Assembly (NCBI RefSeq): GCF_009914755.1
Contig: NC_060930.1
Source of the DNA: the human T2T-CHM13v2.0 reference genome, Homo sapiens
Reading direction: 5' to 3' (one strand)
Length of the DNA stretch: 64,000 nucleotides
Part shown: piece by piece, positions 56,579 through 57,689 of the stretch
Position numbering within the stretch: the stretch's first letter is position 1
How the letters are laid out: every line of letters begins with the position of its first letter
Translations under genes and position numbers: made by a program
The notes under the pieces: model-generated
What the model saw: only the letters and a program-made list of their open reading frames with translations
The model's database searches: none
Told to the model about the DNA's origin: nothing

Positions 56579-56941
56579 TGTGGGGCTAGGGGAGGGATAG
56601 CATTAGGAGAAGTACCTAATGTAGATGATGGTTTGATGGGTGCAGCAAACCACCATGGCACGTGTATACCTATGTAACAAACCTGCACATTCTGTACATG
56701 TATCCCAAAACTTAAAGTATAATAATAAAGAAAAAGAAAAAATAGTTGGAAAGAATGAACAAGACCTACTATTTGATAGCACAACTAGTCAATAATAACT
56801 TGATTGTATATTATAAAATAACTAAAAGAGTGTAATTGGATTGTTTGTAACATGAAGGATAAATGCTTAAGAGGATGGATACCTCATTCTCCATGATGTG
56901 ATTATTTCACATAGCATGCCTGTATTAAAACATTTTGGATT

Positions 56942-57013
56942 GGTCCCATGGTGTAATGGTTAGCACTCTGGGCTTTGAATCCAGCAATCCGAGTTCGAAT
57001 CTTGGTGGGACCT
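56942..57013 (+). tRNA. TRQ-TTG4-1: tRNA-Gln (anticodon TTG), probably a retroposed copy
   Basis: Cloverleaf: acceptor GGTCCCA/TGGGACC plus T, A box TGGTGTAATGG, anticodon stem CTGGG/TCCAG with TTG at 56975-56977, T arm CCGAG-TTCGAAT-CTTGG. No encoded CCA. The symbol is from memory of tRNA-Gln-TTG-4-1 and is unverified. Confidence 0.93.
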
Positions 57014-57027
57014 TTCAAAGGAGTACA

Positions 57028-57031
57028 TTTT
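57028..57031 (+). terminator. TTTT Pol III terminator ending an 18-nt putative tRNA 3' trailer
   Basis: TTCAAAGGAGTACATTTT directly follows the discriminator base. Confidence 0.55.
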
Positions 57032-57322
57032 GGCCAGGCGCAGTGGCTCACGCCTGTAATCCCAGCACTTTGAGAGGCCGAAGCAGGTGGATCACCTGAG
57101 TTCAGGAGTTCGAGACCAGCCTGACCAACATGGAGAAACTTTGTCTCTACTAAAAATACAAAATTAGCCAGCTGTGACAGTGCATGCCTGTAATCCCAGC
57201 TAGTTGGGAGGCTGAGTCAGGAGAATCTCTTGAACCCAGGAGGTGGAGGTTGCAGTGAGCCAAGATCGTGCCATTGCACTCCAGCCTGGGCAACAAGAGT
57301 GAAACCCCATTAAAAAAAAAAA
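57032..57322 (+). mobile_element. AluSp-like element abutting the tRNA trailer
   Basis: GGCCAGGCGCAGTGG start; CTGACCAACATGGAGAAAC; A tail 57312-57322. Confidence 0.95.
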
Positions 57323-57327
57323 TTTCG

Positions 57328-57626
57328 GGCCGGGTGCGGTGGCTCACACCTGTAATCCCAGCCCTTTTGGAGGCCAAGGCGGGTGGATCACGAGGTCAAA
57401 AGATCAAGACCATCCTGGCCAACATGGTGAAACCCTGTCTCTACTAAAAATAAAAAAATTAGCCTGGCATGGTGGTGGGCGCCTGTAGTCTCAGTTACTT
57501 GGGAGGCTGAGGCAGGAGAATCACTTGAACCCAGGAATCGGAGATTGCAGTGAGCCGAGATTGCACCACTGCACTCCAGCCTGGTGACAGAGTGAGACTC
57601 CATCTCAAAAAAATAATTAAAAAAAA
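57328..57626 (+). mobile_element. AluSc-like element inserted at the tail of the previous Alu
   Basis: Full dimer (TCACGAGGTCAAAAGATC, CCTGGTGACAG); flanks TTA(n)ATTTC / TTA(n)GTTTC. Confidence 0.95.
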
Positions 57627-57689
57627 GTTTCATGTACTCCATAAATGCATACACCTACTATATGCCCATAAAAATAAAAATAATAAAAA

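What the first reader, a model, noticed from the sequence alone, without database searches (positions are those of the whole stretch)
56925..57635. Candidate pre-tRNA-Gln/Alu chimeric retrocopy: an intact tRNA gene inside an L1 3'UTR
Seen: the L1-B 3'UTR (...ATGCCTGTATTAAAACATTT | CATGTACTCCATAAAT...) is split by a block made of a few leader bases, a foldable tRNA-Gln(TTG) with A and B boxes and no CCA, an 18-nt trailer ending TTTT, and then the first base of a full AluSp-like element. The tRNA has no poly(A) of its own; the only tail and plausible right TSD (AAAAAATTTC vs left AAAACATTTT) come after the Alu. Known: L1 ORF2p makes chimeras of Pol III RNAs ending in oligo-U fused to L1 or Alu (U6-L1, U6-Alu) by template switching or RNA ligation. 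Inference: an unprocessed pre-tRNA was fused to Alu RNA and inserted in one event, so this tRNA 'gene' is a retrocopy that kept its own promoter and terminator. It could be transcribed, yield a trailer-derived fragment, or drive read-through into the Alu. From memory the trailer resembles that of the chr17 Gln-TTG gene (unverified).
Basis: partly seen in the sequence, partly recalled or inferred. Interest (0 to 1): 0.8.

Follow-up and report, generated by a model that had tools for sequence, protein, structure and literature searches.

The report
Retrocopied pre-tRNA-Gln gene beside an Alu
The annotated human gene tRNA-Gln-TTG-4-1 is a reverse-transcribed copy of the unprocessed transcript of another chromosome 6 tRNA gene, and it probably landed next to an older Alu rather than arriving fused to it, although true tRNA-Alu fusions do exist at four other places in the genome.

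Summary
An L1 3'UTR is split at 56935/57628 by a short leader, an intact tRNA-Gln(TTG), an 18-nt trailer ending TTTT, a full Alu with A-tail, and a second Alu.

The tRNA block is a retrocopy of a primary Pol III transcript. It matches one gene on chr6p22 (T2T chr6:28.46 Mb, probably tRNA-Gln-TTG-2-1) from the leader to the last T of the terminator, and no further.

Fusion with the Alu in one event is not settled. An exact 9-nt direct repeat, ACATTTTGG (10 of 12 when extended), brackets the tRNA block alone. Simulation gives P about 6e-4 for such a repeat under a one-event fusion.

My best reading (about 0.5) is a poly(A)-less "tailless" pre-tRNA retropseudogene that re-used the L1 endonuclease site of an older Alu. 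The one-event chimera remains a strong rival (about 0.35).

A genome scan found four other loci (Asp twice, Lys, and Tyr with its intron) with the same tRNA, T-run and Alu architecture. In three of them the target-site duplication clearly encloses tRNA plus Alu. My literature searches found no description of such chimeras.

Published tables label the locus inactive and unconserved.

The parts
56800..56935 (+). Left arm of the host L1 3'UTR, ending ..ATTAAAACATTT
   Evidence: 88-92% identity to 39 other genomic L1 3'UTR copies. 29 of 29 copies inspected continue ..CAT[C/T]TC ATGTAC without interruption.
56925..56935 (+). L1 endonuclease-type target TT|AAAACATTT. The nick lies between 56926 and 56927. 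The left target-site duplication is AAAACATTT.
   Evidence: sequence. The TT/AAAA and TT/WAAAAWW target consensus is quoted in PMC5322556. The right-hand counterpart AAAAAATTT sits after the Alu1 A-tail.
56936..56936 (+). Extra T that is not L1-derived. It is either an untemplated base at a 5' junction or the first leader base.
   Evidence: the base after CAT[C/T]T is C in 29 of 29 other L1 copies. The right arm here also reads TTTC.
56930..56938 (+). Left copy of the exact 9-nt direct repeat ACATTTTGG (12-mer AAAACATTTTGG at 56927-56938)
   Evidence: k=9. P about 5.6e-4 by chance under a one-event chimera.
56937..56941 (+). 5' leader GGATT (source gene has GG-TT)
   Evidence: alignment to L002.
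56942..57013 (+). tRNA-Gln(TTG), annotated TRQ-TTG4-1. It differs from the source at two positions: A to G in the anticodon stem and C to T at a CpG in the T stem. Both changes leave G-U pairs.
   Evidence: ARAGORN. (Rfam 62.2 bits); the source scores 69.2 bits..
57014..57031 (+). 3' trailer TTCAAAGGAGTACATTTT ending in a T4 Pol III terminator. It is 15 of 18 identical to the source trailer TTCAAAGGTGAACGTTTT. The last 10 nt also match the L1 target at 8 of 10.
57025..57033 (+). Right copy of the direct repeat ACATTTTGG (12-mer AGTACATTTTGG at 57022-57033). It spans the trailer end and the first two Alu1 bases.
57032..57322 (+). Alu1: full-length sense Alu (body to 57311) with an 11-nt A-tail at 57312-57322. 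The subfamily name AluSp/Sq-like is from recall only.
   Evidence: 7SL/SRP-model hits on both monomers. (9 private non-CpG differences in 239 sites)..
57317..57326 (+). Right target-site duplication of Alu1 (or of the composite), AAAAAATTT(C). It is also the left copy of the Alu2 duplication.
   Evidence: It is 8 of 9 identical to AAAACATTT if one C to A change is allowed.
57327..57626 (+). Alu2: a second, separate Alu inserted into the Alu1 tail and duplication. Its own duplication is A(n)TTTC / A(n)GTTTC.
   Evidence: 8 private non-CpG differences in 236 sites.
57628..57700 (+). Right arm of the host L1 3'UTR: TTTC ATGTACTCCATAAATGC...
   Evidence: it continues the L1 sequence seen uninterrupted in 29 of 29 other copies.

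Best explanation
TRQ-TTG4-1 is an L1-mediated retrocopy of the primary, unprocessed transcript (leader, tRNA, trailer and U-run) of the Gln-TTG gene at T2T chr6:28.46 Mb. By position, that gene is probably tRNA-Gln-TTG-2-1.

The most likely history has four steps.
1. An Alu (Alu1) inserted into the L1 3'UTR at the canonical endonuclease site ATT|AAAACATTT.
2. The same site, preserved in Alu1's left target-site duplication, was nicked again.
3. The 3' end of a nascent pre-tRNA-Gln (..GAACGUUUU) annealed to the nicked bottom strand, which is complementary to AAAACATTTT. It was reverse-transcribed without any poly(A). This is how 'tailless retropseudogenes' are made.
4. The second nick fell 10-12 nt downstream, at or 2 nt inside the Alu1 head. 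That produced the direct repeat AAAACATTTTGG / AGTACATTTTGG around the tRNA block and left the U-run flush against Alu1.

Alu2 arrived separately in the Alu1 tail.

The copy keeps the source's internal promoter region and a T4 terminator, but it sits in silent chromatin and evolves neutrally.

Shown: the RNA origin, the source gene, the repeats and the target site.
Inferred: the order of events and the annealing step.

The confidence of 0.5 is for this two-event history. That the block is a pre-tRNA retrocopy at all I hold at above 0.9.
For: **RNA origin**
- Of 38 genomic matches, only one gene shares the flanks. That match covers query 16-107, meaning 2 nt of leader to the last T of the trailer, at 95% identity.
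- The alignment is 92 of 99 identical and ends exactly at TTTT.

**Separate insertion**
- An exact 9-nt repeat, ACATTTTGG (10 of 12 when extended), brackets the tRNA block alone.
- Under a one-event fusion such a repeat has P about 5.6e-4.
- On the same statistic, the four other tRNA/Alu loci score 2, 2, 2 and 3.

**Fit to the tailless class**
- The target TT|AAAACAT fits the class consensus TT/WAAAAWW.
- The class is described as having target sites complementary to the terminal 2-18 nt of the annealed RNA, and as including unprocessed tRNAs (PMC5322556, passages).
- Here the source's last 10 nt are 7 of 10 identical to the target.
- The class acts on Gln pre-tRNAs in this genome. All 4 truncated Gln copies examined have a 5' leader, no A-tail and 10-20-nt duplications.

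**Re-use of an Alu's 5' flank does occur**
- The duplication of the chr2 Tyr composite ends within 1-2 nt of another Alu's head.

**Inactivity**
- Thornlow et al., Table S3: score 58.1, PhyloP -0.047, labelled and predicted inactive.
Against: - Four other loci show that one-event pre-tRNA/Alu fusion is real and gives exactly this architecture, with the U-run flush against a full-length sense Alu head.
- None of the five source genes has a stand-alone retrocopy that carries its trailer in the hit lists. Trailer-primed tailless copies must therefore be rare.
- This reading needs an extra T at the old Alu1 5' junction, because the L1 has only three Ts there.
- It makes the resemblance of TTTTGG(A)TT to the source's upstream TTGTGG-TT partly accidental.
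- The endonuclease-made primer would end in two poorly paired Ts opposite the RNA.
- Published tailless screens required at least 10 nt of 3' truncation, so a full-length tRNA is atypical for the class.
- Dating cannot separate the events. Alu1 shows 3.8% private non-CpG change, against 1 change in about 66 sites of the tRNA.
Confidence: 0.5

Rival explanations
1. One-event chimera. ORF2p reverse-transcribed an Alu RNA from its poly(A) to its 5' end. It then jumped to the 3' U-run of a nascent pre-tRNA-Gln, or copied an already ligated pre-tRNA-Alu RNA, and continued to the leader. The composite integrated with a single target-site duplication, AAAACATTT. The 9-nt repeat around the tRNA block is coincidence.
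For: - The same architecture occurs at four other loci:
  - chr5 Asp, with duplication AGAGATC[A/G]AGAC around the composite;
  - chr1 Lys, with a perfect 11-nt duplication ATACAGGCAGG;
  - chr2 Tyr, with its intron and a 10-of-11 duplication;
  - chr9 Asp, in an A-tail, where the duplication is ambiguous.
- In each, homology to a single source gene runs from the leader to the T-run and stops at the Alu head. The copy has 3-4 Ts where the source has 4-7, as expected for real Pol III 3' ends.
- In the window, a duplication pair AAAACATTT / AAAAAATTT (8 of 9) at a perfect TT|AAAA site encloses tRNA plus Alu1.
- The extra T at 56936 has a parallel in the extra T at the chr5 5' junction.
- The leader GG(A)TT matches the source's GG-TT.
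- The only trailer-bearing Gln retrocopy in the genome is this Alu-abutted one.
Against: - The exact 9-nt repeat (10 of 12) around the tRNA block alone is expected with P about 5.6e-4 under this model. It is absent (2-3 nt) from the four other chimeras.
- The composite's own duplication is short, A-rich and imperfect. It is equally explained as Alu1's duplication.
- U6/Alu chimeras are described as very rare and were not reproduced experimentally (PMC4476161, passages).
Confidence: 0.35
2. The tRNA came first and the Alu second. A tailless pre-tRNA retrocopy entered the L1, and Alu1 later inserted exactly at the end of its T-run.
For: The L1 bases TTT lie on both sides of Alu1, so a very short duplication could be argued.
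Against: - Alu1 would have a duplication of only 3-4 nt.
- Its nick site (ACAT|TTT) is unlike the TT|AAAA consensus, while a perfect site lies at 56926/7.
- The GG and the fourth T of the 9-nt repeat would then be coincidences.
Confidence: 0.05
3. DNA-level copy. A microhomology-mediated templated insertion or gene conversion moved about 96 bp from chr6p22 to chr6q24, without an RNA intermediate.
For: There is microhomology at both ends: TTTTGG against TTGTGG, and ACATTTT against ACGTTTT.
Against: - The copied segment coincides with the Pol III transcription unit, from a few nt of leader to the terminator T-run. The same is true at the four other loci from four other source genes.
- It lies at an L1 endonuclease site and has target-site duplications.
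Confidence: 0.03

Closest known systems
Tailless retropseudogenes (Schmitz et al. 2004; Noll et al. 2015, PMC5322556)
   Same: - L1-dependent copies of small RNAs, including unprocessed tRNAs.
- No poly(A).
- Flanked by 8-35-nt target-site duplications.
- Target TT/WAAAAWW, with complementarity to the RNA's 3' portion.
- Four truncated Gln examples in this genome show the pattern.
   Different: - Described members are truncated inside the RNA, at loops. Noll's screen demanded at least 10 nt of truncation.
- Here the whole tRNA and most or all of the trailer are kept, so the copy still scores as a gene and is annotated as one.
- The priming would be on the terminal U-run region rather than on an A-rich internal loop.
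- I could not read Schmitz 2004 (not held).
U6/L1 and U6/Alu chimeric retrocopies (Buzdin 2002/2003; Garcia-Perez 2007; Doucet 2015, PMC4476161; Moldovan 2019)
   Same: A full-length Pol III RNA ending in its U-run is joined in sense to the 5' end of a poly(A) retroelement, with one duplication around both. This fits the four other loci fully, and the window locus if the rival reading is right.
   Different: - The 5' partner is a pre-tRNA carrying leader, trailer and, in one case, an intron. It is not a mature snRNA.
- The 3' partner is a full-length Alu, not a 5'-truncated L1.
- At the window locus the tRNA block has its own flanking repeat.
- Buzdin 2003 was not held, so I cannot exclude that it lists a tRNA example.
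tRNA/LINE-1 chimeras (Law and Burns 2026, PMC13174262)
   Same: tRNA sequence co-inserted with a retroelement in one target-primed event, with duplications and endonuclease motifs.
   Different: The 21 reported cases are mostly half-tRNAs (positions 1-37), antisense to the L1, and are explained by twin priming (passages). Here the tRNAs are full-length precursors, in sense, and the partner is Alu.
Composite tRNA-plus-7SL SINEs of galago and tree shrew (mentioned in PMC3575423)
   Same: A tRNA-derived head with a Pol III promoter joined to a 7SL/Alu-derived body with an A-tail. This is the architecture of the pre-tRNA/Alu composites.
   Different: Those are amplified families. The human loci are single copies, each from a different source gene, and show no sign of further amplification. 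In some searches no second copy carrying the source's trailer appeared in the hit lists, which are lower bounds.

Membership tests
Retrocopy of a primary Pol III transcript (pre-tRNA) | Homology to a source gene limited to the transcribed unit, from a few nt of leader to the terminator T-run | tested here: met
   92 of 99 identical to L002, and the flanks are unrelated on both sides. No CCA and no A-tail.
Tailless retropseudogene | No poly(A) at the 3' end of the RNA-derived part | tested here: met
   the trailer ends TTTT and is followed at once by the Alu head.
Tailless retropseudogene | Target-site duplication of 8-35 nt around the RNA-derived part alone | tested here: met
   ACATTTTGG exact, 10 of 12 over 12 nt; chance P about 5.6e-4 under the alternative.
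Tailless retropseudogene | L1 endonuclease-type target (TT/WAAAAWW) | tested here: met
   ATT|AAAACAT. The consensus is quoted from PMC5322556.
Tailless retropseudogene | 3' truncation at a single-stranded region, with the target complementary to the RNA at the priming site | tested here: inconclusive
   the source's last 10 nt against the target are 7 of 10 identical, in register. However, the tRNA itself is not truncated, and the last 10 nt can be read as RNA-derived (7 of 10) or target-derived (8 of 10).
One-event chimeric retrocopy (U6/L1 and U6/Alu type) | Full-length small Pol III RNA, in sense, joined at its U-run to the 5' end of a poly(A) retroelement | tested here: met
One-event chimeric retrocopy (U6/L1 and U6/Alu type) | A single duplication pair around the composite at an endonuclease site | tested here: inconclusive
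   AAAACATTT against AAAAAATTT (8 of 9) is present, but it is equally the duplication of Alu1 alone.
One-event chimeric retrocopy (U6/L1 and U6/Alu type) | No separate duplication around either part | tested here: not met
   a 9-nt exact repeat surrounds the tRNA block. The four other chimeras have only 2-3 nt.
One-event chimeric retrocopy (U6/L1 and U6/Alu type) | Both parts appear at the same node of the primate tree | not testable with these tools
   No primate genomes are held. Thornlow Table S12 lists an orthologous tRNA only in Pongo, but it is N/A in Pan and Gorilla too, so N/A does not mean absence.
Functional tRNA gene | tRNA fold, internal promoter region and terminator | tested here: met
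   62.2 bits against 69.2 for the source. The two changes lie outside the first 30 nt and outside positions 52-62. T4 lies 14 nt downstream.
Functional tRNA gene | Evidence of activity and of selective constraint | tested here: not met
   Literature only. Thornlow 2020 Table S3: epigenomic label inactive, prediction inactive (-0.895), PhyloP -0.047, no tRNA gene within 10 kb, no exon within 75 kb. The 29-nt 5' fragment named after this gene is identical in TTG-1-1 and TTG-2-1 (PMC8155501).

The most novel reading that the evidence does not exclude
The window locus is one member of a recurrent class of sense pre-tRNA/Alu chimeric retrocopies that my searches did not find described.

How they would form: L1 ORF2p, after copying a full Alu RNA, jumps onto the 3' U-run of a nascent, La-stage pre-tRNA in the nucleus. 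That pre-tRNA still carries its leader, its trailer and even its intron. ORF2p then installs a new tRNA-type Pol III promoter in front of an Alu body with an A-tail. The product is a ready-made composite proto-SINE of the galago or tree-shrew kind.

The class itself (four loci, of which three have a duplication enclosing the composite and one is ambiguous) I hold to be real at about 0.85. The probability given here is for the window locus being a member.
Probability: 0.35. Interest if true: 0.65.

Novelty: new member of a known kind. Interest (0 to 1): 0.5.

Why it matters
**Annotation.** A "high-confidence" human tRNA gene listed in RefSeq and GtRNAdb is a dead-on-arrival retrocopy. It keeps a perfect-looking promoter and terminator. 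tRNA-gene counts, tRNA-fragment assignments (one 5' fragment is named after this locus) and studies of tRNA gene birth should treat it as such.

**Mechanism.** The pre-tRNA/Alu composites are made from unspliced, untrimmed precursors whose U-runs are 3-4 nt long where the source genes have 4-7 Ts. This shows that the L1 machinery meets nascent Pol III transcripts in the nucleus. It also shows that L1 can join them end-to-end to Alu RNA.

**Evolution.** These composites give natural examples of the step by which composite tRNA-7SL SINEs could arise.

**Method.** The window locus shows that the same architecture can be mimicked by two hits at one endonuclease site. Flanking repeats of each part therefore have to be checked before a chimera is called.

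Tried and rejected
Rejected. The chr17 gene matches only the tRNA body.
- **[quoted passage not shown]** I held this view. I gave it up when the repeat proved to be 9 nt exact, including the extra T and the GG, with chance P about 5.6e-4.
- **Dating the parts to order the events.** Private non-CpG divergence is 3.8% for Alu1 and 3.4% for Alu2, against 1 change in about 66 sites of the tRNA. CpG loss is 2 of 4 in the tRNA plus trailer, against most sites in the Alus. There is no power to order the events. The consensus came from only 64-66 Alu copies I happened to hold, and a majority consensus under-counts CpGs.
- **Phylogenetic dating from the literature.** Thornlow Table S12 gives an ortholog only in orangutan. 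Chimpanzee and gorilla are also N/A, so absence from the table is not absence of the locus.
- **Papers not held.** Schmitz 2004 and Buzdin 2003. bioRxiv supplements are closed, so I used the PMC version instead.
- **Other hits of the pattern scans.** The first scan gave 11 hits and the relaxed scan 75. Most of the 75 are copies of two non-tRNA segmental-duplication loci on chr16 and the acrocentric arms. ARAGORN found no tRNA in L061, L063, L065-L071 or L087. I did not inspect the remaining unique hits one by one, because loci could no longer be cut out.
- **Searches for prior descriptions of tRNA/Alu chimeras.**. None found in the held library.
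Full report
**1. What is there**

- The L1 3'UTR ends at ..ATTAAAACATTT (56935), followed by one extra T (56936).
- The leader is GGATT (56937-41).
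- A tRNA-Gln with anticodon TTG occupies 56942-57013. ARAGORN finds it as the only tRNA in the 64-kb window. Rfam's tRNA model gives 62.2 bits against a gathering score of 29.
- The trailer is 18 nt, TTCAAAGGAGTACATTTT (57014-31).
- Immediately after it comes the first base of a full-length sense Alu (Alu1: body 57032-57311, 11-nt A-tail 57312-22), then TTTC.
- A second Alu follows (Alu2: 57327-57606, A-rich tail to 57626).
- Then come G, TTT and C ATGTACTCC, which is the L1 3'UTR resuming.

A search of the own genome with the left arm returned 39 other L1 copies at 88-92% identity. In 29 of 29 copies inspected the sequence runs uninterrupted as AAAACAT[C/T]TC|ATGTAC. The split is therefore real. 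The ancestral target had three pyrimidines and then a C, so the fourth T at 56936 is not L1 sequence.

**2. The tRNA block is a copy of a primary transcript**

Searching the whole assembly with 56925-57035 gave 38 matches.
- All but one cover only the tRNA body, or a 5' part of it.
- The exception is T2T chr6:28,460,749-28,460,840 (locus L002). It matches query 16-107 at 95%, which is 2 nt of leader, the tRNA and all 18 nt of trailer.

In the alignments identity is 92 of 99. The homology stops exactly after TTTT. The source goes on ACAGTTCC, while the window goes on GGCCAGG.

L002 holds a Gln-TTG tRNA scoring 69.2 bits. I infer it is tRNA-Gln-TTG-2-1, for two reasons.
- Its offset from hg38 is about 128.6 kb, close to the roughly 131.6 kb offset of the nearby TTG-3-1 and TTG-3-2 genes.
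- It has the same 14-nt distance to TTTT in Thornlow's Table S3.

This identification is an inference, not a lookup.

Within the tRNA the copy differs at two positions. One is A to G in the anticodon stem. The other is C to T at a CpG in the T stem. Both leave G-U pairs. The first 30 nt and positions 52-62 are unchanged, so the internal promoter region is that of an active gene. The absence of CCA and the presence of leader and trailer rule out a mature tRNA as template.

**3. One event or two?**

It is more than that. ACATTTTGG occurs exactly twice, at 56930-56938 and at 57025-57033. It brackets the leader, tRNA and trailer and nothing else. Extended, the two 12-mers are AAAACATTTTGG and AGTACATTTTGG, identical at 10 of 12.

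Under a one-event chimera the left copy would be L1 plus an extra T plus leader. The right copy would be trailer plus Alu head. The match would be an accident. I simulated that case:
- 721 TT|AAAA sites in 618 kb of human DNA I held;
- duplications of 7-20 nt, with an optional extra base;
- the real leader and the real right junction;
- a few nt of slack allowed.

An exact repeat of 9 nt or more arose with P = 5.6e-4. The same statistic gives 2, 2, 2 and 3 nt at the four other tRNA/Alu loci.

Under a two-event history the repeat is simply the duplication of a second insertion at the same nick site, ATT|AAAA (56926/7). That site survives in Alu1's left duplication.

This is how tailless retropseudogenes are described. 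They have no poly(A), 8-35-nt duplications and the target TT/WAAAAWW. Their insertion site is complementary to the terminal 2-18 nt of the annealed RNA, and unprocessed tRNAs are among the sources (Noll et al. 2015, PMC5322556, abstract and passages; Doucet et al. 2015, PMC4476161, passages).

The source's last ten bases, TGAACGTTTT, are 7 of 10 identical and in register with the target, AAAACATTTT. The window's AGTACATTTT is 7 of 10 to the source and 8 of 10 to the target. That stretch cannot be assigned to either.

The class is active on Gln precursors in this genome. Four of four truncated Gln copies I examined (L025, L026, L029, L030) carry a 4-6-nt leader, stop at tRNA position 43-44, lack an A-tail and have 10-20-nt duplications.

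**4.

I scanned the assembly for a B-box, 12-40 nt, a T-run and an Alu head.
- The first scan gave 11 hits, and the reversed-pattern control gave 0.
- A relaxed scan gave 75 hits, again with a control of 0. Most were segmental-duplication copies of two non-tRNA loci.

Besides the window, ARAGORN finds a tRNA at four of these loci.

| Locus (T2T) | tRNA | Leader | Trailer | Duplication around the composite | Source gene |
|---|---|---|---|---|---|
| chr5:142.93 Mb | Asp-GTC | (T)GTCG | GCAGCAGTCCTTT | 12 nt, AGAGATC[A/G]AGAC; it also restores an older Alu | chr1:160.7 Mb tandem array |
| chr1:204.74 Mb | Lys-TTT | TGA | TCCTATTTT | perfect 11 nt, ATACAGGCAGG | chr11:59.507 Mb |
| chr2:218.73 Mb | Tyr, still with its intron | GTC | GACAAGTACAGTTTT | 10 of 11, AAGAGTT[A/G]AG(G) | chr8:66.539 Mb |
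| chr9:87.06 Mb | Asp-GTC | GGCG(C) | GCTAATAATGTTT | inserted in another Alu's A-tail, so ambiguous | chr12:124.93 Mb |

At every one of these loci a full-length Alu with a poly(A) follows the T-run directly.

In all four, homology to the source runs from 0-4 nt of leader to the T-run and stops at the Alu head. The copy has 3-4 Ts where the source has 4-7. That is what real Pol III 3' ends would give.

One-event pre-tRNA/Alu chimeras therefore exist, and the window has their architecture. In addition, none of the five source genes has a stand-alone retrocopy carrying its trailer in the hit lists. These lists are lower bounds. Trailer-primed tailless copies must be rare.

**5. Weighing the two readings**

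The chimera reading must absorb a coincidence of about 6e-4.

The two-event reading must absorb four things:
- re-use of an Alu's nick site, with the second nick at or within 2 nt of the Alu head;
- an extra T at the old Alu1 5' junction;
- a rare priming position;
- a partly accidental likeness of TTTTGG to the source's upstream TTGTGG.

The chr2 locus shows that a duplication ending within 1-2 nt of another Alu's head does happen.

With rough rates, the two-event reading comes out ahead by a factor between about 0.3 and 16. I put it at about 0.5, and the chimera at about 0.35.

Two minor alternatives share the rest.
- tRNA first, then Alu. This would give Alu1 a 3-4-nt duplication at a non-consensus nick.
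- A DNA-level templated copy. This would not explain why the copied segment equals the transcription unit here and at four other loci.

Divergence-based dating has no power.

The only phylogenetic datum I found is that an orthologous tRNA is listed for orangutan. It is not listed for chimpanzee, gorilla, macaque or owl monkey. Chimpanzee and gorilla must carry the locus, so the blanks are uninformative (Thornlow et al. 2020, Table S12). The insertion predates the human-orangutan split.

**6. Function**

The copy has a tRNA fold, an unchanged promoter region and a T4 terminator 14 nt downstream. It could in principle be transcribed.

The published evidence is against it. Thornlow et al. use this very gene as their example of an inactive one.
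- tRNAscan score 58.1 and PhyloP -0.047.
- No tRNA gene within 10 kb and no exon within 75 kb.
- Epigenomic label inactive, classifier score -0.895 (bioRxiv passage; Table S3 of the journal version).

A gastric-cancer paper names a 29-nt 5' fragment after this gene. It states itself that the fragment is identical in TTG-1-1 and TTG-2-1 (PMC8155501, passages). The fragment therefore says nothing about this locus.

**7. Relation to what is known**

Tailless retropseudogenes from unprocessed tRNAs are known. A full-length one that still passes as a gene is an unusual member.

Small-RNA/retroelement chimeras are known for U6/L1, and U6/Alu is reported as very rare. Law and Burns (2026) add 21 tRNA/LINE-1 chimeras, mostly antisense half-tRNAs explained by twin priming. 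Their method looks 5' of LINE-1 only.

I found no description of sense, full-length pre-tRNA/Alu chimeras in the held library. However, Buzdin et al. 2003 and Schmitz et al. 2004 could not be read.

Composite tRNA-7SL SINEs of galago and tree shrew (mentioned in PMC3575423) have the same layout as amplified families.

Three items here are recalled and come from no call: the Alu subfamily names, the form of the B-box motif, and the La protein's binding of U-runs.

**8. Verdict**

- Observation: confirmed.
- "Retrocopy of an unprocessed pre-tRNA": strongly supported (above 0.9).
- "Fused to the Alu in one event": possible, but at this locus contradicted by a flanking repeat that the four other chimeras lack.
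- Function: none indicated.

The locus itself is a new member of a known kind. The by-product, a small recurrent set of pre-tRNA/Alu chimeras made from nascent precursors, is the more interesting result and deserves a proper census.

Noticed in passing
L062 (G000:C5:142924175-142927227), minus strand, locus positions about 1625-1190: A clean one-event pre-tRNA-Asp(GTC)/Alu chimera sits inside an older Alu. It has the leader (T)GTCG, the tRNA at 1604-1533, the trailer GCAGCAGTCCTTT, a full Alu and a poly(A) of about 27 nt. The 12-nt duplication AGAGATC[A/G]AGAC encloses the composite. The source is the Asp genes of the chr1:160.6-160.7 Mb 7.4-kb tandem tRNA array (91% over leader to last T).
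   Followed up: yes
L085 (G000:C1:204738330-204739080), plus strand, 161-565: A pre-tRNA-Lys(TTT)/Alu chimera. It has the leader TGA, the tRNA at 175-247, the trailer TCCTATTTT, an Alu from 257 and a poly(A). A perfect 11-nt duplication ATACAGGCAGG encloses the composite. The source is the gene at chr11:59.507 Mb, whose trailer matches to the last T.
   Followed up: yes
L086 (G000:C2:218731380-218732140), plus strand, 142-575: A pre-tRNA-Tyr/Alu chimera that still contains the tRNA intron, so the precursor was unspliced. The anticodon is now ATA. The trailer is GACAAGTACAGTTTT. The duplication AAGAGTT[A/G]AG(G) encloses the composite. Its right copy abuts or overlaps the head of a further Alu, which shows insertion at another Alu's 5' flank. 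The source is chr8:66.539 Mb (89% from leader to last T).
   Followed up: yes
L084 (G000:C9:87055650-87056420), minus strand, about 612-200: A pre-tRNA-Asp(GTC)/Alu composite inserted in the A-tail of an upstream Alu. The leader is GGCG(C) and the trailer is GCTAATAATGTTT. The duplication is A-rich and cannot be delimited. The source is chr12:124.93 Mb.
   Followed up: partly
L025, L026, L029, L030 (G000 chr15:69.92 Mb, chr13:52.89 Mb, chr3:113.36 Mb, chr19:34.51 Mb), each near locus position 1500: Four truncated tRNA-Gln(CTG-type) copies. Each has a 4-6-nt leader, ends at tRNA position 43-44, has no A-tail and has 10-20-nt target-site duplications. They are textbook tailless retropseudogenes. 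At least eight more such partial hits are listed but were not inspected.
   Followed up: partly
G000:C9:103313758-103313808 (hit list): A 51-nt copy of the chr8 pre-tRNA-Tyr that starts with the same leader and stops at about tRNA position 48 (94% identity). It is probably a tailless copy from the same source gene as the chr2 chimera.
   Followed up: no
window 57312-57631: Alu2 sits in the A-tail and duplication of Alu1. It has its own duplication, A(n)TTTC against A(n)GTTTC. The two Alus have similar private divergence (3.8% and 3.4%).
   Followed up: partly
Five copy/source pairs: T-runs at the tRNA/Alu junction are 3-4 nt in the copies, against 4-7 nt in the source genes. An extra T sits between the duplication and the leader at the chr5 locus and at the window locus. 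This may be an untemplated base added at the end of reverse transcription.
   Followed up: partly
window 56700-56745: A stretch ending in an A-rich run (..CTTAAAGTATAATAATAAAGAAAAAGAAAAAA) lies just upstream of the host L1 3'UTR arm. From recall it resembles the 3' end of another L1. The nesting order was not examined.
   Followed up: no
Hit list (chr16, and the acrocentric short arms of chr13, 14, 15, 21 and 22): Two non-tRNA sequences that happen to fit the scan pattern are present in dozens of near-identical copies, which are segmental duplications. They inflate the raw hit count of 75.
   Followed up: no
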